63,871 bases of DNA from Mesotaenium endlicherianum (taxonomy: Eukaryota): contig WELA01003365.1 of the NCBI GenBank assembly GCA_009602735.1, positions 377,491 to 441,361 of the forward strand, read 5' to 3'. This document shows, in pieces, positions 3,301 through 43,813 of the stretch. The position numbers were made by a program, and so were the translations under genes. The stretch's first letter is position 1; each line of letters opens with the position of its first letter. The notes beneath the pieces are model-generated. The model was not told where the DNA came from. It did no database searches and saw nothing but the letters and a program-made list of their open reading frames with translations.

Positions 3301-6300
3301 TGCATCTGAGATCGGTCTCGGCTTAAACAATTTCTTATTTGGGCGACGAGCCCATGTGTGAACGCTCTTCTGCAAGCACCCAGTGCCAAAGCAGCCCTGG
3401 AAAGTGATCTCAGCTCAGGTCCCGGCGTTCCCCGCATCAGTTTAGACCAAACCAACCAGATAGGCTACGTATGCTGGAACGGCCAAGCGCGGGTGGAGCA
3501 TAGTGTGCCATTCAGGGTGTCAAAGGAGGGCAGCCGGCAAAGGTGAGAAGCAGGAGCGACTCCCTCGCAGGACCCGAGTGCTGCCCACGCCCTGAGACTG
3601 TCTCTATTGTAGCGTTTTTTCTCGTATTTCTGATCTTGGATAAAGAGCACCCTCGTAGTTTTCCTCGGGCAAGCAAGCAACTACTTGGAAAGGTTTTCCA
3701 AGGGAAAGGGCGAGCAAGGCAGGAGCCGGCATTGACGCGCGCGTCGCATTTCCATCACATGCAGATCACATTAGACCGCAGAGGAGACTCCCCACTCATA
3801 ATGAGTGCGTTGACACAAGGTGTGGCCTGAGACCCACCGCTCGTCCAGAAGCGTGTCCATGTGGGGGAAGAAGCCGCGCTTGAAGTCCGTCGACAGAACG
3901 TGGCGAGTTGCAACCAGCAGCTCCTGCACGCACGCACGAGCACACACACACACACACACACACGCACGCGCGCACAAGCGCATGGACGCCCGCAGGCGCA
4001 ATCTCACACACCAGCTCAGTAATTACCTACGACGCCCAGCTGTCATGCTCTCATGAACTCCAGTAAAGTAACAGAACCCCGGCATGAATGATCACTCTTC
4101 TGGACCCAACCTCCTCCAAGCCCTCAGCTCAGCCCCAAGCCCAAAGTCCAACAGCCTAGGCCTCACCCAAACTCAAACATCCTGCCGATCCAAGCATTAC
4201 TGCACATTTTAAGAAGGGGAAAGAGAGAGAGGAAGAGAGGGGAGTGGGAGCAACGAGAGAGAGGGGACTGAGATAGGAGAACTGCTTCAGCAACGGAGCC
4301 ACTGGCAAGCCCTTAGGCGGGCTAGATCCTTCGTCTGATCTCTAGTGCAAGGGAAGCAGCAGAGTCGGCAGCTGCAGGCTGCCCACACCAGCGAAAGCCA
4401 GCAAGATGGATGCGGCTCTTTGTTGCAAACAAGAGTCTGTCCGGACCTCCACGTGTATCGACAAGAGAGTCCTTCTGCCTGCTTGCTGGGCCCAGCATGT
4501 ACAAGCCAGGCTTGTGATTATGGGCTATGATCGGTGTGAGGCCAAGGGGCGCAGGGGGGCCACACAGGGATGATCAACAAGCACACGCAAAGTAGATTCA
4601 TCAGAGAAAGGAGCATAGAGCTCAGGCCTTCTTCAGGCAAGTCAAGAGGCTGCAGCAGCAATAGCCCCCACTGCCCCAGCCCCAGCCCCAGTGCCAGCCC
4701 TAGCCCTCACCTTCGTCCCTCGCCCATGTCCCTGCCCCTCACCCTTGCCCTCGCCCTTGCCCTCATCCCTTGCCCCTCACCCTTGTTCTTGCCCTCCTAT
4801 TGCTGCCTCGCTCTGCCCCGGGGCATGTGAGGGAAAGGGGGCCGACCTTGCGGTGCGAGACGAGGTCGGGGCACGTGACGAGCAGGTTCACGATGCTCTT
4901 GGAGATGCTCTCCTCGTGCGGCTTGATGTAGTCGAAGTGCGACCTCAGGATGTACGTCAGGAACGACAGCGTCTGCACACGGCCCCAGCAAGTGCCAGCT
5001 CACCTCCCAGCGTTTTGAGCGATACTGGTTGCAAGGCTGACTTGACCCTGACCTTGACCTTGATCTTCGAGGCCACAGCGCGCGGTGGGGTCGAGAGGCA
5101 CAGCAGCACAGCACAGCCCAGCAGTTGCAGGGTTGACCTTGACCTTGACCCTGACATTACCATCATGACGACAGCAGGGGAGTGGGGCCCCTGACTGAAA
5201 GACTGACTGGGTAAGTGAGTGTCATGGCACATAGGAGCATGAAGGAGGTGCGCTGCCAACGGACGGCTGCAAATGCTGACTGAAAGTCCACTTGCACGAG
5301 GTCGAGTCTGCGTAACTGAGGGACTGAGGGACTGAGGACAGTCGCAGCCCTCCCCCCTCTTCTCCCCTGCTCTTCGCCACAGGGTCCGGCCCATCTCCTG
5401 CTCCAGGCTGGCCCTGAAGGGCAGGCTTCAAGATTGAATAGAGGTCAATACTCCAGCATTGAGTGGCAGCCAGGCGTAGTTCAGGTATGTGCATGTGTGA
5501 AGCTGCCGCAGGCAACTGAACCAGGGCCTGGGCATATGTGTGGAGTATATCTTGTCTGGACTCGCACTTCTTTTTACTGCCCCTCTCTTGTCGTAATGTG
5601 CCGTGGCCGCTGCTTCCAATCCGTCAGAGCCGGAGAAATTACCCCAGCTTTGAATCCCGTCCACTACTCCAGCCATAGACACTGGAACCGATGGGGCACG
5701 AAGCGCTGACTTGGCGGTGCACATCAAGACCGAAAAAAGTACCCATGACACCCACACCCAAACTCAAAAAAGGAGTCCTCTGCTCCCCACCCCCTCGCCC
5801 CTCCTCCCCCCCCTNNNNNNNNNNNNNNNNNNNNNNNNNNNNNNNNNNNNNNNNNNNNNNNNNNNNNNNNNNNNNNNNNNNNNNNNNNNNNNNNNNNNNN
5901 NNNNNNNNNNNNNNNNNNNNNNNNNNNNNNNNNNNNNNNNNNNNNNNNNNNNNNNNNNNNNNNNNNNNNNNNNNNNNNNNNNNNNNNNNNNNNNNNNNNN
6001 NNNNNNNNNNNNNNNNNNNNNNNNNNNNNNNNNNNNNNNNNNNNNNNNNNNNNNNNNNNNNNNNNNNNNNNNNNNNNNNNNNNNNNNNNNNNNNNNNNNN
6101 NNNNNNNNNNNNNNNNNNNNNNNNNNNNNNNNNNNNNNNNNNNNNNNNNNNNNNNNNNNNNNNNNNNNNNNNNNNNNNNNNNNNNNNNNNNNNNNNNNNN
6201 NNNNNNNNNNNNNNNNNNNNNNNNNNNNNNNNNNNNNNNNNNNNNNNNNNNNNNNNNNNNNNNNNNNNNNNNNNNNNNNNNNNNNNNNNNNNNNNNNNNN

Positions 6301-8766
6301 NNNNNNNNNNNNNNNNNNNNNNCCCCCAAAAAGAAACCACCACACACACACACGAAAGGGGGTGTGAAAAAAGCAAGCCCACAAGCCGTACCTTGATCTG
6401 GGCGCCCTTGAGGTCGGCATAGGCCGGCTTGAGGTGATGAGGCACCTGCTGGGGGCCGGAGATGCTGATGGACTGCACCATGAGGGGCAGCAGGATGGGG
6501 ATGTTGGCCGCCACAAAGCGGGGGTAGAGCTGGAGCAGGAACATGACGATGAGGGGGCAGTCGTTGATGAGCTTGAAGGAGCGGTTGGCCGGGTTGAGCT
6601 GCCCCGGGATGGGCCCGGAGGTGCCCACCTGGCGCTGGCCCACGTAGCTGATGCCCTGGGAGGCGGCCAGCTGGGACGCCAGCTGGCCCGCCTGCTGCAC
6701 CTGCACCTTGTTCAGGTTCTCCTCGAAGAAGTAGCTGACCGTGGCCTTGAAGTTCTGGTAGGCCTGCCAGGGGGAAGGAGAGAGAGAGAAAGAGAGAGAG
6801 AAAGAGACATGTGCTTGTGCTCTTGTTACTCAACAGAAGGTGCATCCAGGAAGGCAGAGGTGCACATGCATGGATGTAGCAAGCGCCGTGAACATGATGT
6901 TGTCCACAGGCTTCATTCCACGAGAGTTGGTTACAGTCCAACGAGCCCCCGCGTGTCAGCTGCGTGAGATGGACGCTGCTTGGCAACCGGTGGAGAGAGG
7001 GCAACAGCACTGGGAAGGAAAGGGCAACAAAACCAGGGATAGTGACGAGCTTGAGAACGTCAAGCTGCTTAGTTGCCACAGGAGTGGTGTTTCCCTACCA
7101 CAATTGAGGCGAGGGGGGGAGCACAGGCCAAGGGGGGGCTGTGTGCCAGGTGTGCCCCGCAGGCAGGTCTGGTGCAGTCCTCACCTTATTGACGTAGTCC
7201 AGGAACAGCTGGACCTCGTTCTCGAGGGAGGGGCGGAAGTTCTTGTGCAGGTCGAACATGATGCGCAGCGCGATGATGCCGTTCTCCTCATTGTCGCTGG
7301 CCATGACGGCGTGCGACAGCTTCAGGAGGTCAAACACGTACGGCCGCAGCACCTCGTTATGGGGCAGCCGGTTCAGGATCTCCAGGATCACGTTCCTCAC
7401 CTTGTGATCTGCTGAGTCTGTCAGCTGCCAGGGGCGACAAAGACAGAGCAGGGTGCGCAGCGGGTAAGAATCTGCAGCCAGGGCTGCTGAAGTTGTAGCT
7501 AGGGTCAACTGACGTCAAACACTGTCAACTGCAGTTGACCACGATTGACTAGGCACTTGCTCCAAAGGTACTTACATGGAAAACATGCGTGCAGGCTGCT
7601 TGGCTCCTAGGCACAGGTAGACAGATTGTGCCGCAACGCATCACATATAGTTTGAAGTCGAGGAATGCCCTCACACAGAGGTAGAAAGACAAGACTTCAT
7701 CGGAACACATATGGTTCTTTACTCGGCGCTTGACGGAGTGCAGGGAAGTGCCCTCGGGATTGCTGAAACAAGTCATTCACTCCCCTTCTTGACACCTGCC
7801 CCTTATGAGATTCCCCAAGCTCTGTTGACCTGCAGGACGTGCATATCAAGACTCTATGGCAAATGCATACCAGAGAGACTCGACAACTGTCATGTCCATC
7901 TGACTGAGTCACCATAGTGGAAGTCTTCATGATCTAGTGACCCTGACAACGCCGATTGGTAACGAATACCTTGCTTCCAAAATACGAGAAGGTAATCTCA
8001 TATTCTATCAGAATAATAAAAACAAACTCTCTCCTCCTTTCATTCCATCCCCAGACCTCCTTATGTCTTCCACGGTTTCTTTTTGCTTCCAAAAAAAAAA
8101 AATGTTCTGACTCAGCGGCACCTCGTAATCGCACGCTTCTATTTATTTCCCCTATGGATATATTCCTCCTCAAGCTCGTCCTTTCCTAGTAACTCATTGT
8201 CAGAAAAAGCTGGGAAGTTTTTCATTCCTGGAATCTGAGATATGGTTGCTGACACTTCCAGTCATGCAAGCTCAGTGGCCAATAATCCCCAAAAATAGGG
8301 AGGGCAAAAGCCAGGGAAGTAATACCTGGGGCTTGGTAATCTGCGTGAGCACTTGCCAGAATACCCGGAAGTAGCTCTTGAGGAAGTTTTGGTACTCGCT
8401 TGTATGGGCAATCTCGATGCTGTCCCGCACCTCCGTCGCCAGCTGGTGACGCTGGGCCATAGCTGTACACATATGATAATGGTCAAGGAACTCTTCTTCC
8501 TTATAATAAAAGCTTGGTAAAATACAGCACGCCCTTTTTCTTTAACATATCATATATGTCTCGTCTCTACGTTCATCTTAGAAGCACACAGCATCATACA
8601 ACAATGGGGGCTTGTCGGGAAAGCAAAGACATGAGTTTGGAAGGCAGTCATGCATAAGCTTCCACTGGAGACCTGCAGGTGAGGTAAAGAGTATTTTTTT
8701 AAGGATACTCTGCTCCGGCTCCAAAAACCTCCGAGCATGTTGGTCAAAGTTGCTTATCGGTATCAT
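333..8766 (-). CDS. TRA1: Transformation/transcription domain-associated protein (TRA1/TRRAP, PIKK pseudokinase), N-terminal ~537 aa; gene continues beyond the window start
   Basis: 13 GT-AG exons join in frame: 8766-8709, 8462-8326, 7424-7185, 6763-6392, 4972-4847, 3923-3838, 3123-3015, 2641-2546, 2089-2027, 1786-1727, 1470-1399, 855-774, 442-333. The translation MIPISNFDQHARRFLEPEQTMAQRHQLATEVRDSIEIAHTSEYQNFLKSYF...KVRNVILEILNRLPHNEVLRPY...ELLVATRHVLSTDFKRGFFPHMDTLLDER...ACYETLRPL is the recognisable plant TRA1 N-terminus. Confidence 0.95.
5815..6321. other. Assembly gap (N run) in a TRA1 intron
   Basis: Run of N flanked by poly-C tracts. Confidence 0.99.
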
Positions 8767-9078: not shown

Positions 9079-9095
9079 GCTCTAGTAGCTCAGTT

Positions 9096-9128
<33 letters not shown>

Positions 9129-9152
9129 AAGGTTCAAATCCTTCCTGGAGCG
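9079..9152 (+). tRNA. tRNA-Asn (anticodon GUU), intronless
   Basis: GCTCTAG/CTGGAGC acceptor stem; D arm with A box (TAGCTCAGTTGG); anticodon arm TGTGG-CTGTTAA-CCACA; T loop GGTTCAAATCC (B box); discriminator G; AT-rich upstream flank. Confidence 0.97.
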
Positions 9153-9169
9153 CTTATTGCAGACAAGCA

Positions 9170-26500: not shown

Positions 26501-27244
26501 TGAAAGGGGCAAAGTGCCCTAGTGGAAGCGTAGTGACTCACGAGGAACAAAGCTAATTGCAATCATACTCAAGAGTGCAGCGGCATACTGCTAAGAAAGC
26601 TTAGGAAAATTACTTGACATTTTGAGTGGCAAGAAACTGCTCACAAATGATGTAGGATGAAAGGCCTTGTCATTACAAACCCGTAGAAATTTACAGAAGT
26701 GAAAACTGATAAGAAACAAAGAAGTTATGCCTATTTATAATTTTCTGCCTAAGTGCTCCCCTCTAGGAGGAAGCTACGGATTTTCCGAAGTGTTCGTCAA
26801 ATCGTCCCTTCCAGAATATTCGTGAGTAAGCCAGATCAGTCTAATCTGACGTGTCGGGCCGAATTGACGTCCACATACATGCATCGACATTACTAGAATA
26901 TTCTATCTTAGACGCGCTAGGCTAAACCGAAACTTCTAGGTAAATCGACCTAGTCGGCACTCCGCGTCAGCCGAACTTACGTGAAGGTTCGAGTTCATTC
27001 TAACGGGCCAGATCGCTCGACGCTGTCGGTCAATCCGACGGTCGCGCTCACCGCGAATTAAGGACAGTCGTCAACCGACCTCAAAACTAATTAAACTTCG
27101 GAAATCCATAACTCTCTCAATACTTGACCAAATTCGATGAATTTTATATCAAAATGACCACAAAAATGCACTCTACACTACTATACAATCAAAACATACT
27201 TTCATGAAACTCAAAAATGCACTTTATAAATCTATGACCTTACA
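26501..27244 (-). repeat. 5' LTR of element B
   Basis: Near-identical to 21034-21777. Confidence 0.95.
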
Positions 27245-28880
27245 CTGAAGCCAGGCACGAAGCGGTGGTAGTAGTTGGCGATCCCAAGGTAGGCCCTTAG
27301 CTGCGAGATGTCAGTGGGCGGCGGGATGCCTGTGATGGCCGAGATCTTGGCCAGCTGCGGTGCCAAGCCACTAGAGGAGAGGAGATGCCCGAGGTACTCC
27401 ATCTCTCGGGTCCCAAAGGTGCACTGCCCTTGATGGCACTTGAGCCCAACGTCCTCCAAGCGGTCCAGGACGGCAGTGATGTGCGCCACGTGCTCCTTGA
27501 ACGTCACATTGAAGACGAGCACGTCATCAATGTAGTACCGGGCAAAAGATAGCCTTGCCAGCTCCTTATCCATGACCCGCTAGAAGGTAGCTAGAGCGTT
27601 CTTCAACCTAAAGAGCATCACCCTCCATGTAATGAATCAGTATATTGCTTGACATAATATTCATTTAAATAATATAGTTAAATAAGTTCAGCCTGCTAAA
27701 CTCTAGTTATATTTAATATCAATTTAACGACTCAGCCGGAAGCAGCATGCTGATGTGAGCTTAAGTCAGCTTGCTGACACATTCTTTGACAGCCAGCTAA
27801 CTTCCGTACTCGGTAGCAGCGAACTGCTTCGAAATGCATCTAAGTGTGGTTTGCTAGATGAATGGCCAGATGACATCCCTATGATGGATGGCGATTCGGG
27901 ATGATGGGAGATGGCGGTGGATTTAGTTAACCGAGGTCCTACCAACGTGGTTAACTCCCGGGTAGGCGGTGCCATCGCACTGGCCGTTGAACAGTAAACT
28001 CATTCCATGTACGTATGCTAGGCATTGCTCTCGAGTTTGGCATTCGGAAACGAGGCCAACTCTCTTGTACAGCTTACTGAGAGAGATCTAAATCCAAGGC
28101 GAGAAGCCATTGATACGCACTGTCTTCTAACCTTGCTTATGTATGAGTTTATTGATTTGCATTATTGATGCTAGTTTACTCGCATTTGACTTACGAGTAT
28201 TATTCACTGCTAGTGTGTTGTCCTTTGCCGTTTAACCAGTTGACGGAAAATACCATACAGATTACTTGCTGATATAAAGATCTTTATCAATTGTTAATCG
28301 CCTATTTGGTAAGTCGATTCATTTCACTCCACTTGTAAAGGCGTTGTGCCCCCAGAACGCTGTCTTGTGCTGGTCCTCCGCCGCAATAGGTATCTGCTTG
28401 AAACCCTGCCTCAAGTCCAGCACCAAGAATTATGTGCACGTGCCAATGTCATCGAAGATCTTGTCAGGGTAGGCATGGGATATTTGTCCTGCTCAGTGAC
28501 CTCATTCAGCTTACGATAGTCACCGCACATCCTCTTCTCAAACCAATTGCCTGAGGCATCCTTCTTTGCCAGCATGACCGTGGGGGCCGCGTAGGTAGAG
28601 GACGACTTCCAAATAAGCTGGTTGTCCTCTAGCTTGCCTGTCTGCGTGCTAATCAAGCCGTCCTCGAAGTGACTGTTGCGGTATCGCTTCTGGAAGATGG
28701 ATACGTCTGACGTGAGGCAGAGCCTCATGGGGTCGCCAGTGTAGCGCCCCAAGTCATGCATACTACTGGCAAAGCACGCACTGCGCCGAGCATCGAGCAT
28801 CTCAGTCAGCTGCGCTGCCTGCTCCGTGGTAAGGGTCCCCCCCAACTTCCATGTAGGGGCTGCTGGAGATGGTACTTGCC
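27245..28880 (-). pseudogene. Element A reverse transcriptase, split by solo LTR C1
   Basis: KRMCGDYRKLNEVTEQDKYPMP...KTAFWG..YKW|RVMLFRLKNALATF*RVMDKEL...YYIDDVLVF...YLGH...LRAYLGIANYY. Confidence 0.9.
27628..28326. mobile_element. Solo LTR, family C (699 bp)
   Basis: TGTAATGAATC...GATTCATTTCA inverted termini; TSD CTCCA (27623-27627 and 28327-28331); removing it restores the RT sequence. Confidence 0.93.
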
Positions 28881-29321: not shown

Positions 29322-30320
29322 TTAAGGGAGCTCGGGATGGCCGGCCTCCCGATAAAGGGGAGTCAAGGCTTGCGTCTGCAAAAGAAGCCAAGTCAAGACA
29401 TTGGCATCAATGGCCTGCCCCAAGAGCCGAACGCGGTTGACCTTGGTGATGCCATCCACCTGGGTCAGATGGGCCGGAAAGCCCAAGGCGCGCTCCATCT
29501 CCACGGCGCGCGGCCGTCTGTACAGGCCAAAAGAAAGGTCGATGATCATGCCGCGAGCTGCACCAATGTAGGCGGCGCTGTTGTAGCGTCTGACGAAAGT
29601 AGGCAGAGCGTGCGTGACATTGCCGAGCACCTCACACTGGGCCTGCAACAAATGGGGCAAGGCTGTAACGCGCTGGGCCAGCCGGGCGACGTCGAGGATG
29701 AAGTCGACGTTGCGCGTGTGGCGGGGGTGCGCGGCTGCAAGGGCCTCCAGCGTGCCTGGCAGGGCTAGGTTGGTGAAGTAGGCGCGCACGCGGTGGGCAA
29801 AGGACCCAATCTGCGCGGCGTCGATGACGGCCTCGCTTCCGAGGTAGCTGCTGCAGAGCTCAAAGTCGGCGCAAACATTGGCTCGTTCGTCGCCGCACAC
29901 CGCTACATTTTCCAAGACCCACGCGAGGGAGTGAGGTGGTTGTCGCGTCTCCACCAGGTTGAGGACGCGGAGGAGGTGCCAGAAGAGCGCTGTGCGAGGG
30001 TCGCTGAGGGCACCGCTGCGACCTGCGATGGAATACCCGTGGCATGCCCAACCAGCAATGACGAGGTCCACTGGGCCGAGGCGCGTCACGTGCTCGTTGG
30101 TGATGTTGCGGATGTCCATGGGCCAGTTAGTCTGCGCGTGGCGGAAGGCGCGTGCAGGAAAGATGTCGGAAAAGCGCTTGTGACAGAGCGCCATCTGACG
30201 TCGAGCAACCTGCTGTGCCTCTAGGTCAGGGTCGACGTAGACGTAACGTCAAACGGGAATGCCAGCCTGCAGGGTCGCGATGCCGACGAACATCTCCACC
30301 AGAACGATGCCACCAGGTCG
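29322..30320 (-). pseudogene. C5-cytosine DNA methyltransferase domain encoded inside element A pol
   Basis: Motifs in canonical order: I VLVEMFVGIA; II YVYVD; III DIRNI; IV DLVIAGWACHGYS; VI WVLENV; VIII AHRVRAYFTNL; IX EMERALGFP; X RLLGQAID. In-frame TGA at 30249-30251. Confidence 0.92.
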
Positions 30321-33873: not shown

Positions 33874-35594
33874 CTAAATCCTGCTACTGGCAGCTAGTAG
33901 CAGGCGGCTGTGCTCCTGTCGCTCCCTTGTGCGCAGATCTGTGCACGCGTGCACGGTGCGCGTGCCAAGACTCGTCGCGACCTGCGCCGCCGTCTGGCAG
34001 GCTAGCAGGGGGCTGCCACTTGCCGCCAGGCCGGCCATTGCCGGTCCTGCCGCCGATAGCAAGGCCGTGCAGGCCAGAGTCGTCACCTGCGTCGGTGCTG
34101 GCTGCGCTGGCGTTGGGGACGCCTCGTCGCCGAGACGGATTGCTATGTCGGCCAACTGGGCTGCGCCTGATGGGTGCTGGCCAGCTGTCAGCCGGTTGAA
34201 GCGTGTCCGTTGGCCATTGGCAAAAACCCTAGCTGGGAGCATGCTGCTGACAGGAGCGTACAGAGCTCCGCACGCATCATAGCCGGTGCTGGCGTCGCGA
34301 GCGTGTAGGCGGGCAATCTCGGCCTCGGCCGCTAACAGTGCGTCGTTAAGGGCGTCGTAACTGTAGTGATCCTCGCCGGGCGTCATCACGGCGCTGGTCG
34401 TGGCCGTGGCCGCCGTCATCGCGAGTCGTCCGCCAGTGTGCGGATTACGCATGTCCTGCTGGCCTGCTGCACCGGAGGGTCTGATCCAAGCGCGCCCGTT
34501 TTCGAGGTCGCGCTTCTTTTGCAGGTAGACGATTTGCAAGTGGCCGGCTTTGCCGCAGTATGTGCAGTTGCCGGGCTTGCCGTTTTGCGCGAGCGTGCAG
34601 TCACGGCAAGAGTGGCCCATCTTCCCGCAAGACCAACAGGGGTTGCTCGTCGTGGAGGCCATCGAGATACGGCCGCGCGACGCTCCGCGCTACTGAGTCT
34701 GTTGGGGCAGCTGCGCGCGCTGAGCTGCTGGGGCTGGCGTGCAGGGGCTGGTCGCATTGTGGAAGATGGCAGCACCGTGGCCTCCTGCCGTATGCTTGTA
34801 GATGCGAGGCCCATACGGTTGCTGATGTTGCTCCGTGTGGCTACCAGTATCTGCTTCTCAACTGAGAGGTAAGTGTCCTCCAGTGAGTATCCGGAACCCT
34901 TGCGGTCGATGAGGGGGGCGATAGCTCTCTCCCTTAGACGCGGCTCCACGGCACGCAAGAAGATCTCTGCTGCCTCTCAATCAGTAACCGTGCCCACGTC
35001 TCTTCGTAGGTGGGTCAGACGTCGGTACATCATGCGGATCATCTCATTTTTGCGGCGGAAGAAGTGGTGCAGCTCATACACCTTCTCCTCCATGGCGGCC
35101 TGGAACTCCTGTCTGAGGACGTCCCAGAAGGCCTGCACTGGGTCAGCTTGTGGGGTCTGAATGTCCCCCACCAGCTCCGTGCGCGTGAGGATCTCGGCTG
35201 CCTTCTCTTGATAGGTGTCGCGAGCCTCGTAGAGAAGGTAACGCATGAGCGTGCCAAACACCTGGCGCTTAGTGAGCGCGGGCGTCTTGAGCTTAGCGTT
35301 CTTGAAGTCAGCCTCGAACTCGGAGATAGTGTCGTCCAGATCACAGGTGCCCGGCCTGCCGCTGAAGCGGAAGAGGGAGGCCCTGTCTACCTTCGTATCC
35401 TGGTCACCTGCCATGGAGGACGAGGGATCGTAGTGAGTCCACTGAAGAGGTGGCTCATGGACGGCAGTAGGCTGAGGGGGCACCGGGTGCTCCTTCTCAG
35501 GGGGATCAGTGTTAATATTGAGATCTGAGTCTGAGTCCTCGCCATTAACCCCTTCGTAGTAAAGCTAATGAGATAGCCCACTACGGGTAGGCAT
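33874..35594 (-). pseudogene. Element A gag with two CCHC knuckles
   Basis: Starts MPTRSG at 35594; capsid-like FRFSG..., FFRRKNE; knuckles CWSCGKMGHSCRDC and CTYCGKAGHLQIVY; internal stops at 35565 and 34977. Confidence 0.82.
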
Positions 35595-35630
35595 ACGCTG
35601 AAGACTCTAATTGCGAGCAGGCAAAGAGAT

Positions 35631-35644
35631 ATCTTTTTAAAAGT
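35631..35644 (-). promoter_or_regulatory. Non-tRNA primer-binding site of A, complementary to the predicted transcript 5' end
   Basis: - strand ACTTTTAAAAAGAT pairs with ATCTTTTTAGAAGT (35949-35936): 13 Watson-Crick pairs plus one G:U. Confidence 0.65.
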
Positions 35645-36579
35645 AAGGGAGTGTTTACTCTCCAGAGTGAGCACCTCAAGATTGTAATCTGGTAGGAGAA
35701 CAACTAATGAATTCTGGCTAAAAAGATCACTGGAAGCACATCATGATCTTCAAGAGTAGTCCTACGGCAGGGTTTAAGCTGTGACTTTGCTCACCACTTG
35801 TGAAGTTCCTCAAGTGACAGGAAGCCTGGAGGGCTTGCTCTTCACAAGAGAGAGACTAAGTGGTCTTGAAAACACAAGAGATAAAAGTGTAAGCTATGCT
35901 GACAATCTCTGTGACTTACAACTGGCATAATGGGGACTTCTAAAAAGATGTCCTTCTAAGGGCATCTACTGCTATATACTCCCTGCAGAATCGGCGCGGA
36001 AGGCGGCGGATACAATGCACACAGTCCCACCAGGATGCTTTCGTAGGTCCACGAAAGTAGAGGCAAAGCAAGTACTAGCTCTCCTATTGGCTAAGCACAA
36101 CACACACCAATCAAATATAGTGCAAGCAAGTGGATGCATGGCTCTCGTTGGCGGAGCTTACCTCGAGTAATGCTTTCTAGATAATGCCTCAAAAGTAGAT
36201 GGGAAACGTGAGGAAGCTTCCTCTAAGAATGAGTGATGCAGTCACCGAGTTATGGCTCAGGTGGTGCTCATATACTATGCTAATACATGCTAAGTGTACT
36301 TTATCAAGCTCGCGGATTTGTATGCTAATGGCTAGAGGTCTTTGGAGTCGCGAAGAGCCAACAATGTCACCTTTGGGCACATTGAGTCATAAAGTGGCCT
36401 TTGGCGGGATTCGCTCGGGGCCGGTAGGTGGCGCAAAGTAGATCGCGGATATCTCGCTCGATACTTGTCCAAATGGCGTGCAACCGATGTCGTTCGGAAA
36501 GTGACGCGACGCTCTACATTTGGGCGACTAGGAATGCTAGTAAAGGTCAACATATGAATGCGTGCAGCAAGGTCAAAGT
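35644..36579 (-). repeat. 5' LTR of element A (outer end not resolved)
   Basis: Matches the 3' LTR blocks; contains - strand TATATA at 35978-35973 and a CA initiator at 35950/35949. Confidence 0.8.
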
Positions 36580-36699
36580 CGACCTTCTTAGGTCGATGGT
36601 CGACGCACGTATGTTTTGGCAGGGTTGACGGTCTCGACCTAATGAGTCATGACAACAGTAACTCATTCTATTTACGTATGCTAGGTATGCTATCGACCA

Positions 36700-37697
36700 G
36701 AGATGTCAATTTAATGTCTCTCTAGCATTGCTAGTGTTGAAGGATGTAGTAATTTGACATATAATATATTAGTTTGGATATAATGCTTTTGAATATATTT
36801 GGAGTAGTATTGTGTGGAGTCGAGTGTGAATAGATACTCTAGTGACTTGGTTCATGTCCTTTGAACCTTTTAAGGCATTTTCAAAGTTAGAGGAAGGACC
36901 TAGAAGGACTCCATGTGGCAAAAGTCAAATGTGCCATTTTTAGGTCAAAAGGAAATGTGTAAATTATTCTAGAAAGAGGTGGCAAGTTTTGGGCTGTGTT
37001 GGGTGCCAACACATCAACATGCACCTTACTAGAAATTGCTTATGTAGCAGGTATATAAACAAGAGTTAGAACACTGAAAGACATTCCAGAATCACTCTTG
37101 TACGTGCCAAAGTCCAGAAATATAATAACTTTCAGGAAGTCATCTCTCTTTCAAGAAGTTACCACTTGTGTTCAGAGATGCTTGTCTTGAAGAGATATAG
37201 TATTACATTTTACTAAGTACTTTACCTATCTGTTTCACTACAGAGGAATTCTCCCACCTTTTTTGATGATGACTTGATTTATTGGCATGTGTTACAACTC
37301 TTTCAATAATTTCTGACTTGCTTAGACATGCCTGGCTAGCAATAAGTTCTTGCTAGCACAGCTGTGGTCTGTAATGATATAAAGCGTTTAATCAAGAGGG
37401 TTGTTGTGTGCTTCCCGTAAAAGCAAGAGACCAAATTGCAAGTCATTAAGAACACATCTCTAGCCAGTGTCTTGCCTGAGCCAATGATTGCCATCTTGCT
37501 TCTTGTATGGGTCCAAAGCTGCTTCTCTAGCTGTTCTTGTAATAAGGGACTGCTTCATAGGTGACAGACATTGCGCCTCCAAATCATTGTTGAAGGTTGT
37601 CATGATCGAGTTTACTTACAACCTTGCAAGGAAGTTGGAAGAATTTGTCTTGTCGTGCTAGTAGTGTATCTTGATGTATTGTTGCAGGTATTCCATA
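36700..37697 (-). pseudogene. Fossil Gypsy RH-end/integrase Zn-finger fragment (related to B), split by a solo LTR
   Basis: MEYLQQY.IKIHY*HDKTN, KKQDG..W, LLLREAHN, TAVLARTYC*PGMSKQV, SCNTCQ*IK...KKVGEF|LQ align to B WMEFLQQF...LLLAEHHD...YYWRNM...SCDTCQRNK...KKGGTLQP. Confidence 0.8.
36745..37242. mobile_element. Solo LTR, family E (498 bp)
   Basis: TGTAGT...ACTACA termini; near-perfect TSD AAGGA/GAGGA; internal TATATAA near 37052; removing it rejoins the fossil integrase. Confidence 0.8.
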
Positions 37698-38269: not shown

Positions 38270-38975
38270 TGTAATGAATCAGTATATTGGATAGATATAA
38301 TATTCATTTATACATAATAATTAACTAACGTAAGCTTGTTGAACTCTAGGTAATATTTAGTTTGCTGGATATTTGATACTAAGTTGAATGTCTTAGCCGA
38401 GAGCAGCAGGCTGAAGTCAATTAGGTCAGCCTGTTGACTTAGGTCAGCTTGCTGACACATTCTTTGACAATAAACTGGCTGCCGTACTCGGCAGCACCGA
38501 ACTTTTTAGCTATGCATCTAAGTGTGGTGTGCTAGATGAGTGGCCAGATGACACCCCTAAGGTGGATGGCAATTCGGGATGATGGGAGATGGCTGTGGAT
38601 TTGGTTAGTCGAGGTCCTACCAACGTGGTTAACTCCCGGGTAGGCGGTGCCATTGCACTTGCTGTTGAACAGTAAATTCATTCCATGTACATATGCTAGG
38701 TATTGCTCTCGAGTTCGGCATTCGGAAACGGGGCCAACTCTCTTATACTGCTTACTGAGAGATATCTGAATCCAAGGCGAGAAGCCATTGATACGCACTG
38801 TCTTCTAGCCTTGCTTATGTATGAGTTTATTGATTGCATTATTGATGCTAGTGTACTTGCATTTGACTTGCTAATATTGCTCACTGCTAGCGTGTCAACA
38901 TACTTTAAAGATTACTCGCTGATATAAAGATTATTATTGATTGTTAATCGCCTATTGGTAAGTCGATTCATTTTA
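38270..38975. mobile_element. Solo LTR, family C (706 bp)
   Basis: Homologous to 27628-28326; TSD TAGAG (38265-38269 and 38976-38980); terminal CA mutated to TA. Confidence 0.9.
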
Positions 38976-41954: not shown

Positions 41955-43813
41955 ATGGGAGAACTTTCTCGTGTACTGTTGTGTGCAGACAGTTCATCAA
42001 TGTCCCATCACCACATGCACATGTCATTCTACTGGAGCGAAAAGGCCACCATCCTCTTCGACCAATGGACAACGCAGTCCATGGCGTCCTACTGGGCGGC
42101 AATGCTGTTGACTTTCCTCTTCTGCATCCTCCACGAGTGGTTGACTACAAGCAGAGTGAGGGTGGCAGCCCCAGCAAGGACACCTTTGATGAAAGACGAA
42201 ATGGTGGAACGCTCCGACTCAGAGCAAGGCCCAATGCCCTTGTAATTATTCCCACCCCAGCCTCCACCTTTTCTCCCCAACTTATCCCTTGTCAGTGTCT
42301 CATTCTTGCTGTCCTGTACTGTCTGTCGCATACTTCCTAATTTATAGCAGCTGCCTCTGTCCCCCTTACTGCTTCAGACGCATACTTTGACAATATATTC
42401 CTCAATAATCTTTGGGCAAACTTCATATCCCTAACGCACCCAATTAACCACCGTTTACCCACCCACTGCCCCCTCCCCCNNNNNNNNNNNNNNNNNNNNN
42501 NNNNNNNNNNNNNNNNNNNNNNNNNNNNNNNNNNNNNNNNNNNNNNNNNNNNNNNNNNNNNNNNNNNNNNNNNNNNNNNNNNNNNNNNNNNNNNNNNNNN
42601 NNNNNNNNNNNNNNNNNNNNNNNNNNNNNNNNNNNNNNNNNNNNNNNNNNNNNNNNNNNNNNNNNNNNNNNNNNNNNNNNNNNNNNNNNNNNNNNNNNNN
42701 NNNNNNNNNNNNNNNNNNNNNNNNNNNNNNNNNNNNNNNNNNNNNNNNNNNNNNNNNNNNNNNNNNNNNNNNNNNNNNNNNNNNNNNNNNNNNNNNNNNN
42801 NNNNNNNNNNNNNNNNNNNNNNNNNNNNNNNNNNNNNNNNNNNNNNNNNNNNNNNNNNNNNNNNNNNNNNNNNNNNNNNNNNNNNNNNNNNNNNNNNNNN
42901 NNNNNNNNNNNNNNNNNNNNNNNNNNNNNNNNNNNNNNNNNNNNNNNNNNNNNNNNNNNNNNNNNNNNNNNNNNNNNNNNNNNNNNNNNNNNCCCCCCCA
43001 ACTCAGTCAAAATCTATGTGTTCACATTTCTTTTACAGTCACCAACTCCCAGCCTCAACTCTAAGGCCCCTCCTGCAGCCAATGTATCACAAGGGTTCAC
43101 CCTTGGTTGTCACGCCAAACCATACTTTGAGGCTTACAAACGTGCTGCTACACATGTTAGTCTGGCGTATGCTGCTGTGCATGAAAACATTCAGCTTCAG
43201 AGAGTGTCACTAACCCCTCAGCCGCCTTGAAACAATCTATTCAGACTAATTTCTACCCTCCCAAACGAAGCACCTCACGAAGTTGCTGAGGTTTTGTTTT
43301 CCCATTAATATTGTCGCACCGAGCACTTTCAACAGTAGTCTACAAGGGTCAGAAGCAGACCCTTTTTGCTGGCACCAGATCTCCAGGGGTACGAACAAAA
43401 GAGCAGGGTGATGCTGTTATCTCCTCGCATGTCGCTGCCCTGCATCTAAAATTGCATCCCCAGCAGGTGCCCAGCATGTTACGATGAAATGAGTGTGCCC
43501 CTCCCACACAAGATGTTGCAGTGCTCAATACTAGGAATTGCCGTGAAAAGCGGGCGAGGCTTATAGGATGTGGCGCTTGTGTCAACCTATCTGCAGGTTG
43601 TCCGATGGGCAAGCACCCGTAAGCGGAATCAGGCGAGCTGGCGCAACGCTTCTGTATGGCCTGAATGCGGCCAGCAGCTACATTATTATGTTGATAATTA
43701 TGACCTTCAATATGGGCTTATTCTTTAGCGTTGTGTTAGGTTTATCTACTGGCTTCTTTCTCTTTGGGTTCTCGAGAGTAGGATCTTCTTCTCAGCTTTG
43801 TCACGCCTCTTAG
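41955..43813 (+). CDS. COPT: CTR/COPT family copper transporter
   Basis: Exons 41955-42241 and 43597-43813 join in frame. His/Met-rich MSHHHMHMSFYW..ILFDQW N-terminus; MLIIM-x12-GLSTG is the MxxxM-x12-GxxxG signature; C-terminal LCH. The start could be the Met at 42000. The intron contains an N gap. Confidence 0.93.
42480..42992. other. Assembly gap (N run) in the COPT intron
   Basis: Run of N flanked by poly-C. Confidence 0.99.

What the first reader, a model, noticed from the sequence alone, without database searches (positions are those of the whole stretch)
35631..35978. Self-priming signature: the PBS of A pairs with its own predicted mRNA 5' end
Seen: no TGG-type tRNA PBS follows the 5' LTR, and gag starts only ~50 nt later. 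Positions 35631-35644 (ATCTTTTTAAAAGT) and 35936-35949 (ACTTCTAAAAAGAT) form an inverted repeat of 13 pairs plus one G:U in RNA. The LTR-internal arm begins at a CA initiator 29 nt downstream of the - strand TATATA (35978), where transcription should start. Known: S. pombe Tf1 primes reverse transcription by annealing its first 11 nt to the PBS, followed by RNase H cleavage. Inference: the same tRNA-free mechanism in a non-chromodomain, DNMT-bearing algal lineage. The arms are AT-rich, so the case rests on position.
Basis: partly seen in the sequence, partly recalled or inferred. Interest (0 to 1): 0.75.

Follow-up and report, generated by a model that had tools for sequence, protein, structure and literature searches.

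The report
Candidate self-primer in DNMT-bearing gypsy retrotransposon
The 14 bases directly after the left terminal repeat of a decayed, DNA-methyltransferase-carrying Ty3/gypsy-type retrotransposon are complementary to 14 bases inside that repeat, 29 bases past its only TATA box; this likely marks tRNA-free, Tf1-style self-priming of reverse transcription, but the RNA start and co-variation of the arms could not be shown.

Summary
On the minus strand, 35949-35936 pairs with 35644-35631 by 13 Watson-Crick pairs plus one G:U. The second arm begins at the last base shared by the two copies of the terminal repeat. No TGG occurs in the next 62 nt. The first arm begins 29 nt after the only TATA[AT]A in the repeat.

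The match is not chance: 1 of 4000 dinucleotide shuffles reaches 14 bp with at most one G:U, and only the window that abuts the repeat reaches it among 182 windows along the leader and gag.

Three contigs of other copies show the second arm with C at the G:U position.

The interpretation stays unproven:
- The element's 3' repeat copy lacks the 471 bp that carry the first arm and the TATA box.
- The repeats are arranged A-coding-B-A-B, as published for KnitGypsy-Dnmt3, not as plain LTRs.
- No RNA read covered gag. All reads on the repeat came from diverged copies, some ran through the TATA box, and the only pile-up of 5' ends was at 35917, not 35949.
- No other copies could be fetched, so co-variation was not tested. 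Only one tRNA could be compared.

Self-priming is my best reading, at about 0.45.

The parts
35936..35949 (-). Arm 1, the candidate self-primer (ATCTTTTTAGAAGT on the minus strand). It starts at a CA 29 nt after the first T of the TATA box.
   Evidence: A few diverged RNA reads show 35946 A>T on the plus strand.
35631..35644 (-). Arm 2, the candidate primer-binding site (ACTTTTAAAAAGAT). Its first base is the last base shared by repeat copies A1 and A2.
   Evidence: In 3 contigs of run X2 the equivalent stretch reads ACTTCTAAAAGAT (loose end at 35637).
35973..35978 (-). TATATA, the only TATA[AT]A in the repeat.
35644..36579 (-).
   Evidence: Self-BLAST: 36236-36579 matches 18409-18745 at 91.6% over 344, and 35644-35764 matches 18289-18409 at 91.7% over 121.
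35765..36235 (-). 471-bp segment of A1 that is absent from A2. It holds the TATA box and arm 1.
   Evidence: DNA contig depth here (6.9-14.7 thousand in run X1) is close to that of gag (6.1-10.0 thousand).
35645..35935 (-). Stretch between the arms, which would be the template of minus-strand strong-stop DNA. It is the most abundant and best-kept part of the repeat.
   Evidence: summed contig depth is 144-254 thousand over 35664-35883 in run X1, against 6-30 thousand for most of the rest of A1 (36192-36279 reaches 37-91 thousand).
35866..36161 (-). Candidate 296-nt intron, or a deletion variant, in transcripts of related copies. It removes the TATA box and arm 1.
   Evidence: reciprocal loose ends in run X22 at 35865 (30 reads) and 36177 (10 reads). 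GTAAGC lies at 36161. 35866 T>C in nearly all copies gives CAG|G.
34977..35564 (-). First open frame of the element (presumed gag), first ATG at 35545.
   Evidence: It has no Pfam hit itself. A weak zf-CCHC hit, below the cut-off, lies in 33874-34689.
29322..30248 (-). C-5 cytosine DNA methyltransferase domain.
   Evidence: PF00145, E 5.5e-9.: relatives at 29-39% identity carry DNMT, and two (P0005, P0006) also carry RT, RNase H, integrase and PHD.
19712..20791 (-). RNase H and integrase (H2C2 zinc finger, rve core).
18884..19018 (-). PHD-type zinc finger at the C-terminal end of pol. No chromodomain was seen.
   Evidence: PF00628 is present in relatives P0005 and P0006.
18821..18835 (-). Purine-rich tract (GAGCTGAGGGGGAAA) between the pol stop codon (18838-18836) and B1; a candidate polypurine tract.
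18746..18823 (-). Repeat B1.
   Evidence: 18740-18823 matches 18208-18289 at 92.9% over 84.
18289..18745 (-).
18208..18288 (-). Repeat B2, directly after A2.

Best explanation
The 14 nt that abut the 5' terminal repeat (35644-35631) are likely the primer-binding site of a tRNA-independent, Tf1-type self-priming system whose primer would be the complementary 14 nt inside the repeat (35949-35936).

Shown: the complementarity, its position at the repeat end, the lack of a TGG-type PBS, the TATA box 29 nt upstream of arm 1, and the gypsy-type gene content (DNMT, RNase H, integrase, PHD).

Inferred: the genomic RNA would start at or near 35949, or carry arm 1 near its 5' end. It would fold back so that arm 1 anneals to arm 2. 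The element's RNase H would cut after the duplex (about 35936/35935). Reverse transcriptase would extend the freed 3' end from 35645 up to 35935. This strong-stop DNA would then transfer to the same stretch in the 3' copy A2. The purine tract just before B1 would prime the plus strand.

The copy in the window is a dead one. Its repeats are 91.6% identical. Another gypsy element and a 700-bp repeat are inserted in its pol. Its frames are broken, and arm 2 carries a C-to-T change.
For: 1. The helix is 14 bp with one G:U. It is reached in 1 of 4000 shuffles, and only 1 of 182 windows along the leader and gag reaches it, namely the window at the repeat end. With any number of G:U it is reached in 10 of 3000 shuffles, and the duplex energy in 2 of 600.
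2. Arm 2 starts at the last base common to A1 and A2. RNA reads of other copies leave the window's sequence at that same point.
3. There is no TGG within 62 nt. The nested control element B shows a plain tRNA-Met-like TGGTATCGGAGC 2 nt after its LTR and only a 7-bp helix under the same criterion.
4. Arm 1 begins at a CA 29 nt after the only TATA[AT]A of the 978-nt repeat.
5. Three contigs of run X2 show arm 2 as ACTTCTAAAAGAT. That puts C opposite the G of arm 1, so the G:U looks like decay of a perfect match. No majority variant is listed within arm 1.
6. The stretch between the arms is the most conserved and abundant part of the repeat, as expected of R-U5.
7. The centroid fold of 35949-35560 contains the long-range helix.
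8. Self-priming is established for Tf1, proposed for Tj1 (PMC4600332, passages read) and predicted for 12% of plant LTR elements (PMC6317226, passages read).
Against: 1. A2 of the same element lacks 35765-36235, so it lacks arm 1 and the TATA box. Any retro-copying has to restore the promoter of A1 from A2, so this is either a later deletion or a sign that the segment is not part of the replicated repeat.
2. No 5'-end pile-up is seen at 35949. The only one is at 35917 (11 molecules, depth 38, run X17). At least 14 X17 reads run from upstream of the TATA box across arm 1. In run X22 most reads join 36162 to 35865, which skips arm 1.
3. None of these reads is from this copy (0 reads at 99% identity or more) and none lies on gag, so they say little about the genomic RNA.
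4. The minimum-free-energy fold does not use the helix, and the z-score is -1.28.
5. The tRNA-primed control element B also has a 14-bp helix between U5 and its PBS region, with 4 G:U and -20.5 kcal/mol. Pairing between repeat and leader is therefore not specific to self-priming.
6. ATCTTTTTAG recurs at 35727-35718, though the family majority there reads otherwise.
7. Contig depth at arm 2 drops to 2192 between flanks of 12 thousand and 122 thousand. This could mean the arm varies or that assemblies break there.
8. The repeats are arranged A-coding-B-A-B, which the standard LTR scheme does not produce.
Confidence: 0.45

Rival explanations
1. The two arms form a long-range RNA stem between the repeat and the leader that serves another purpose, such as presenting the primer site, packaging or dimerisation. 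The real primer is a different, unidentified RNA.
For: The control element B, which has a clear tRNA-Met-type PBS, also pairs U5 with its PBS region over 14 bp (4 G:U, -20.5 kcal/mol). The non-random helix in A would be explained equally well.
Against: No tRNA-type PBS exists within 62 nt. The helix occupies exactly the PBS position and leaves no room for another primer site next to the repeat. B's stem is local (about 45 nt apart), while A's spans 305 nt.
Confidence: 0.2
2. The match is a by-product of a recurrent A/T-rich motif in the repeat (ATCTTTT.., TTAGAAG) and has no function. The copy is simply decayed.
For: The arms are A/T-rich with T5 and A5 runs. ATCTTTTTAG recurs at 35727. Loose ends of other copies show a related near-palindromic motif at about 35760.
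Against: Only 1 of 4000 shuffles and 1 of 182 sliding windows reach 14 bp. Independently, arm 1 sits at TATA+29 with a single TATA[AT]A in 978 nt. Other copies have the better-matching C in arm 2.
Confidence: 0.15
3. The element replicates by a DIRS/Ngaro-like route implied by its A-coding-B-A-B repeats, and needs no PBS next to A1. The arms are then irrelevant or act in template switching.
For: B1-A2-B2 lies at the 3' end and A1 alone at the 5' end. The legend of Fig. 4c in PMC5890265 gives the same repeat layout for KnitGypsy-Dnmt3. No target-site duplication is visible at the outer ends. Junctions from A into B dominate in RNA and DNA of the family.
Against: The element encodes a DDE integrase (rve), and no tyrosine recombinase was found among the 20 frames scanned. 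A purine tract sits exactly before B1 and the complementary arm exactly after A1, which are the places of a PPT and a PBS if the LTR is read as B+A.
Confidence: 0.1
4. The primer is an internal tRNA fragment or another host small RNA complementary to arm 2, as in half-tRNA priming of some copia elements.
For: Half-tRNA priming exists in plants (PMC6317226, passages read). The host tRNA set could not be examined.
Against: The one tRNA in the window (Asn-GTT) shares at most 5 complementary nt with the site. A perfect complement is already present in the element itself.
Confidence: 0.1

Closest known systems
Tf1 of Schizosaccharomyces pombe and the Tf1/sushi group (self-primed Ty3/gypsy elements); Tj1 of S. 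japonicus
   Same: There is no tRNA-type PBS. The stretch directly after the 5' repeat is complementary to a stretch of the repeat placed where transcription would be expected to start. The element has gypsy-type RNase H and integrase.
   Different: The RNA 5' end is not mapped here. There is a PHD finger instead of a chromodomain, and a DNMT in pol. The repeats are split (A..B-A-B). Membership in the Tf1/sushi clade by RT phylogeny was not tested.
KnitGypsy-Dnmt3 of Klebsormidium nitens (de Mendoza et al. 2018, PMC5890265; section 9 and the Fig. 4 legend read)
   Same: It is a gypsy-type pol carrying a Dnmt domain. The repeats are arranged A-coding-B-A-B. It is silent in RNA data.
   Different: The host of the window is not identified. 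The nearest DNMT relatives found are only 29-39% identical. A term search of the paper's main text found no mention of a primer-binding site or a PHD finger. Its supplements were not opened.
Plant lineages predicted to self-prime: Tcn1 (chromovirus) and TAR (Ty1/copia), from Neumann et al. 2019, PMC6317226 (passages read)
   Same: The prediction rests on the same kind of sequence signature.
   Different: These are different lineages. That survey found no non-chromovirus gypsy elements in algae.
DIRS/Ngaro/PAT tyrosine-recombinase retrotransposons with split direct repeats
   Same: The repeat layout is A1-internal-B1-A2-B2.
   Different: This element has an integrase of the rve type, and no tyrosine recombinase was found.

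Membership tests
Tf1-type self-priming elements (mechanistic class) | No PBS complementary to a tRNA 3' end next to the 5' LTR | tested here: met
   No TGG in 62 nt after the repeat end. The control element B shows TGGTATCGGAGC.
Tf1-type self-priming elements (mechanistic class) | The stretch abutting the LTR is complementary to a stretch of the LTR | tested here: met
   14 bp with one G:U; reached in 1 of 4000 shuffles and 1 of 182 windows.
Tf1-type self-priming elements (mechanistic class) | The complementary stretch is the very 5' end of the genomic RNA | tested here: inconclusive
   The TATA box lies 29 nt upstream. RNA reads from diverged copies show no pile-up of 5' ends at 35949, only at 35917, and some run through. 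No read lies on gag.
Tf1-type self-priming elements (mechanistic class) | The primer sequence is present in both LTRs | tested here: not met
   A2 lacks 35765-36235. This may be a later deletion in this old copy.
Tf1-type self-priming elements (mechanistic class) | The arms stay complementary across copies (co-variation) | tested here: inconclusive
   Only glimpses are available: 3 contigs with C at the G:U position and an A-run one base shorter, and a few reads with 35946 A>T in arm 1. No copies could be fetched.
Tf1-type self-priming elements (mechanistic class) | RNase H cleavage after the duplex, and the primer found on strong-stop cDNA | not testable with these tools
   This needs bench work.
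Tf1/sushi clade of chromoviruses | Chromodomain at the integrase C-terminus | tested here: not met
   A PHD finger ends pol. There was no chromodomain hit among the 20 frames scanned. Relatives carry PF00628.
Tf1/sushi clade of chromoviruses | RT/IN phylogeny places the element inside the clade | not tested
   No reference sequences were at hand.
DNMT-bearing gypsy elements of the KnitGypsy-Dnmt3 kind | Dnmt domain together with RT, RNase H and integrase in one element | tested here: met
   PF00145 in 29322-30248; RNase H and integrase in 19712-20791. A YIDD-type RT motif flanks the C insertion. The architecture is shared with P0005 and P0006.
DNMT-bearing gypsy elements of the KnitGypsy-Dnmt3 kind | Repeats arranged A-coding-B-A-B | tested here: met
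   A1 is 35644-36579, B1 18746-18823, A2 18289-18745 and B2 18208-18288. The stretch upstream of A1 is not B (63 of 300 shuffles score as well).
DNMT-bearing gypsy elements of the KnitGypsy-Dnmt3 kind | Close sequence relation to the published K. nitens family | tested here: inconclusive
   The best DNMT relatives are 29-39% identical and none is named. The host was not identified.
DIRS/Ngaro tyrosine-recombinase retrotransposons | Encodes a tyrosine recombinase | tested here: not met
   There is no PF00589 hit. rve integrase is present.

The most novel reading that the evidence does not exclude
A DNMT- and PHD-bearing, chromodomain-less gypsy lineage with DIRS-like split repeats primes its own reverse transcription from a 14-nt stretch of its terminal repeat. 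The 291-nt stretch between the arms is then the strong-stop template. This would be an independent origin of self-priming outside the Tf1/sushi and TAR lineages and the first in an alga. It would also tie the odd A..B-A-B layout to a standard PBS/PPT-driven cDNA with LTR = B+A.
Probability: 0.4. Interest if true: 0.6.

Novelty: new member of a known kind. Interest (0 to 1): 0.4.

Why it matters
Self-priming has been demonstrated for Tf1, and is otherwise implicated or predicted from sequence in a few gypsy and copia lineages. A further, unrelated lineage would show that tRNA-free priming arose repeatedly. This one carries its own DNA methyltransferase and a PHD finger, and has repeats laid out like those of tyrosine-recombinase elements.

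It would also give a concrete handle on how an integrase-bearing element with A-coding-B-A-B repeats copies itself. The published description of that layout, as far as I read it, gives no mechanism for this. As it stands, this is a sequence-level prediction on one dead copy.

Tried and rejected
- **Whole genome:** none is held for this window, so no family alignment and no host tRNA set.
- **Sequencing runs:** no RNA holder is listed for the stretch. RNA runs came only through the species label.
- **Related loci:**
  - gag against viral contigs and metagenome contigs: no relative.
  - A degenerate pattern for the repeat end plus arm 2 in metagenome contigs and viral contigs: 0 matches.
  - P0005 against viral contigs: none.
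- **Earlier findings of the scan:** nothing relevant.
- **Rfam:** no match at E up to 1 on 35400-36700.
- **DNMT search at near lengths:** no hit.
- **Arms as terminal inverted repeats of a high-copy MITE (35949-35631):** rejected. The abundant copies leave the window's sequence at 35644/35643 and continue into B, so arm 2 is not part of the abundant unit.
- **Stretch upstream of A1 (36580-36622) as a decayed B, giving plain LTRs B+A:** not supported; 63 of 300 shuffles score as well.
- **B2 supplying the poly(A) site (AATAAA at the A2|B2 junction):** not supported. Loose ends run 17 to 80 nt into B without a tail.
- **The 700-bp repeat C (27628-28324, 38270-38973) as the true LTR pair:** rejected. 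It has 8-bp inverted ends and sits inside the RT frame of A.
- **A Tf1 paper by PMC id:** not held.
- **Not used:** structure prediction and complex prediction, as they do not bear on the question.

Full report
**What is at the coordinates.**

On the minus strand the window reads ...GGACATCTTTTTAGAAGTCCCC... at 35953-35932 and ...CTCCCTTACTTTTAAAAAGATATCTC... at 35651-35626. The stretches 35949-35936 and 35644-35631 pair without gaps over 14 positions, 13 Watson-Crick and one G:U at 35940:35640. TATATA lies at 35978-35973 and is the only TATA[AT]A in the 978 nt examined. A35949 follows C35950, 29 nt after the first T. No TGG occurs in the 62 nt after the repeat end. One detail differs: the first ATG of the downstream frame is at 35545, 86 nt after the arm.

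**Is it more than chance?**

- Allowing any number of G:U pairs, a helix of 14 bp or more between the 22 nt at the repeat end and a dinucleotide-shuffled repeat occurred in 10 of 3000 shuffles. A duplex energy of -16.3 kcal/mol or better occurred in 2 of 600.
- Allowing at most one G:U, it occurred in 1 of 4000 shuffles.
- Of 182 sliding 22-nt windows over 2 kb of leader and gag, only the window at the repeat end reaches 14. The next best reaches 11.
- The position of arm 1 at TATA+29 is an independent coincidence of roughly 1 in 100.

I take the pairing as non-random.

A caution comes from the nested control element B, which has a plain tRNA-Met-like site (TGGTATCGGAGC at 26498-26487). Under the lenient criterion it also shows a 14-bp helix between its U5 and its PBS region, with 4 G:U and -20.5 kcal/mol. 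Under the strict criterion it shows only 7 bp. Pairing between repeat and leader therefore exists in tRNA-primed elements too.

**The element.**

Element A lies on the minus strand from about 36579 to 18208. Pfam hits among the 20 frames scanned:
- a C-5 DNA methyltransferase domain in 29322-30248 (E 5.5e-9);
- RNase H, the integrase zinc finger and the rve core in 19712-20791;
- a weak zinc knuckle, below the cut-off, in 33874-34689.

Pol ends in a PHD-type finger at 19018-18884. The stop codon is at 18838-18836.

The RT frame is interrupted twice:
- by a complete younger gypsy element B (21033-27244; LTRs 745 bp, 98.4% identical; TTCAG duplication);
- by a 700-bp repeat C with 8-bp inverted ends (27628-28324).

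The nearest proteins found are 29-39% identical in the DNMT part. Two of the nine (P0005, P0006) combine DNMT, RT, RNase H, integrase and PHD. The host was not identified.

**The repeats are not plain LTRs.**

Self-BLAST pairs 36236-36579 with 18409-18745 (91.6% over 344) and 35644-35764 with 18289-18409 (91.7% over 121). The 3' copy (A2, 457 bp) thus lacks 35765-36235, the 471 bp that hold the TATA box and arm 1.

A2 is also flanked on both sides by an 82-bp repeat B: 18740-18823 matches 18208-18289 at 92.9%. The stretch upstream of A1 is not B, since 63 of 300 shuffles score as well. The layout is therefore A1-coding-B1-A2-B2.

This is the layout that de Mendoza et al. 2018 report for KnitGypsy-Dnmt3 of Klebsormidium nitens. 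Their Fig. [quoted passage not shown] A term search of that paper's main text found no mention of a primer-binding site. Its supplements were not opened.

A purine tract (GAGCTGAGGGGGAAA, 18835-18821) sits between the pol stop and B1. Arm 2 sits directly after A1. These are the places of a PPT and a PBS if the functional LTR is read as B+A. I saw no target-site duplication at the outer ends.

**What reads of the host show.**

*RNA at 90% likeness.* Four RNA runs (X16, X19, X22, X17) gave 18, 32, 112 and 120 reads. None was 99% or more alike, so none came from this copy.
- The reads cover 35648 to about 35930, mostly with the first mate on the plus strand. In the usual stranded library this means minus-strand RNA; that reading is inferred.
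- Depth is zero on 35400-35619.
- At 35652/35648 the reads leave the window's sequence and continue as the A-to-B junction (TCCCTTAATTAAAACATTTGAC...), not into arm 2 and gag.

*RNA and DNA at 80% likeness* (runs X17 and X22 for RNA, X1 and X2 for DNA contigs).
- RNA coverage extends to about 36059 and again over 36148-36279.
- At least 14 X17 reads run from a diverged TATA region across arm 1 (loose end at 35967).
- In X22, 30 reads at 35865 and 10 at 36177 mutually define a junction 36162|35865. Its skipped part begins GTAAGC. In nearly all copies it ends CAG, because of 35866 T>C. This is a 296-nt intron or a deletion variant that removes the TATA box and arm 1.
- The only pile-up of 5' ends is at 35917 (11 molecules, depth 38, X17). 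One search also lists 35911 (7 molecules).
- There is no pile-up at 35949.

Gag is not expressed in these runs, which agrees with the silent, methylated state reported for KnitGypsy-Dnmt3. These reads therefore neither support nor refute the predicted start of the genomic RNA.

*DNA contigs* (X1 and X2). Summed depth in run X1:
- 144-254 thousand over 35664-35883;
- 91 thousand over 35884-35927;
- 22 thousand over 35928-35971;
- 6.9-14.7 thousand over 35972-36147;
- 6.1-10.0 thousand over gag (35400-35531).

The stretch between the arms is thus far more abundant than the rest. The segment with the TATA box and arm 1 has about the copy number of gag. Many single-copy contigs skip or replace about 35890-36145.

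Contigs of other copies run from gag through arm 2 into the repeat at about 85% identity (records 1 and 9), so the A1-arm 2-gag arrangement is not peculiar to this copy. Three X2 contigs read the arm 2 position as ACTTCTAAAAGAT. That puts C opposite G35940, with an A-run one base shorter. Two contigs show a 1-nt deletion at 35638.

No majority variant is listed inside arm 1, although the table is truncated (162 rows not shown). Depth at 35638 is only 2192, between 12 thousand at 35616 and 122 thousand at 35655. That may reflect variation of the arm or assembly breaks at an A/T run.

**Weighing.**

The signature has everything a sequence can show for Tf1-type self-priming: position, lack of a tRNA site, a non-random complement at a plausible start, and a hint that the ancestral match was perfect. 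Self-priming is described for Tf1, proposed for Tj1 and implicated from fungi to vertebrates (PMC4600332, passages). It is predicted for 12% of plant LTR elements, in the Tcn1 and TAR lineages (PMC6317226, passages).

Against it:
- the first arm is missing from A2;
- there is no evidence for the start site;
- the co-variation test could not be run;
- the tRNA test is nearly empty: one tRNA (Asn-GTT, 9079-9153) with at most 5 complementary nt;
- the split-repeat layout is not produced by the textbook scheme.

A variant of the model does not need the start at 35949. An RNA that begins further upstream could still be cut after the duplex and prime from 35645. Known self-primers, however, sit at the very 5' end.

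I put self-priming at 0.45. The rivals are another role for the stem (0.2), a by-product of a recurrent motif (0.15), a DIRS-like route without a PBS (0.1) and a tRNA fragment or other small RNA (0.1).

**Novelty.**

The mechanism is known, and so is the element type with its repeat layout (PMC5890265). What would be new is the link between the two: a self-priming signature in a chromodomain-less, DNMT/PHD-bearing gypsy lineage. One full-text search for Klebsormidium, retrotransposon and primer binding site together found no paper. That search covers only the held library.

Noticed in passing
window 18208-18835 and 35644-36579: Element A has split repeats A1-coding-B1-A2-B2 (B is 82 bp). A purine tract lies directly before B1 and the candidate PBS directly after A1. 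This fits a functional LTR of B+A plus one extra B at the 3' end. No target-site duplication was seen. The published description of this layout (KnitGypsy-Dnmt3), as far as I read it, offers no replication scheme.
   Followed up: partly
window 35866-36161 (minus strand): RNA reads of related copies join 36162 to 35865. The skipped 296 nt begin GTAAGC and, in the family majority, end CAG. This is an intron inside the terminal repeat or a common deletion variant.
   Followed up: partly
window 35645-35935: This 291-nt stretch of the repeat has 15-40 times the contig depth of gag and is mostly followed by repeat B, not by gag. Either many solo or truncated A-B units exist, or there is a non-autonomous family sharing this stretch.
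   Followed up: partly
window 21033-27244 (minus strand): A complete, younger Ty3/gypsy element is nested in the RT of A. It has 745-bp LTRs (98.4% identical), TG..CA ends, a TTCAG duplication, a tRNA-Met-like PBS (TGGTATCGGAGC) at 26498-26487, and gag, protease, RT, RNase H and integrase. It served as the control.
   Followed up: yes
window 27628-28324, 38270-38973, 16804-17134 (inverted): A 700-bp dispersed repeat with 8-bp inverted ends (AATGAATC / GATTCATT), MITE-like. One copy interrupts the RT of A next to the YIDD motif. A 45-nt piece of it resembles 36654-36696.
   Followed up: partly
window 18884-19018 (minus strand): A PHD-type zinc finger ends the pol of A where chromoviruses carry a chromodomain. 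Two distant relatives (P0005, P0006) also carry PF00628.
   Followed up: partly
window 9079-9153 (+): A tRNA-Asn (GTT) gene, the only tRNA in the window.
   Followed up: yes
window 5815-6322 and 42480-42992: Two runs of about 510 N (assembly gaps), and four single N inside element B.
   Followed up: no
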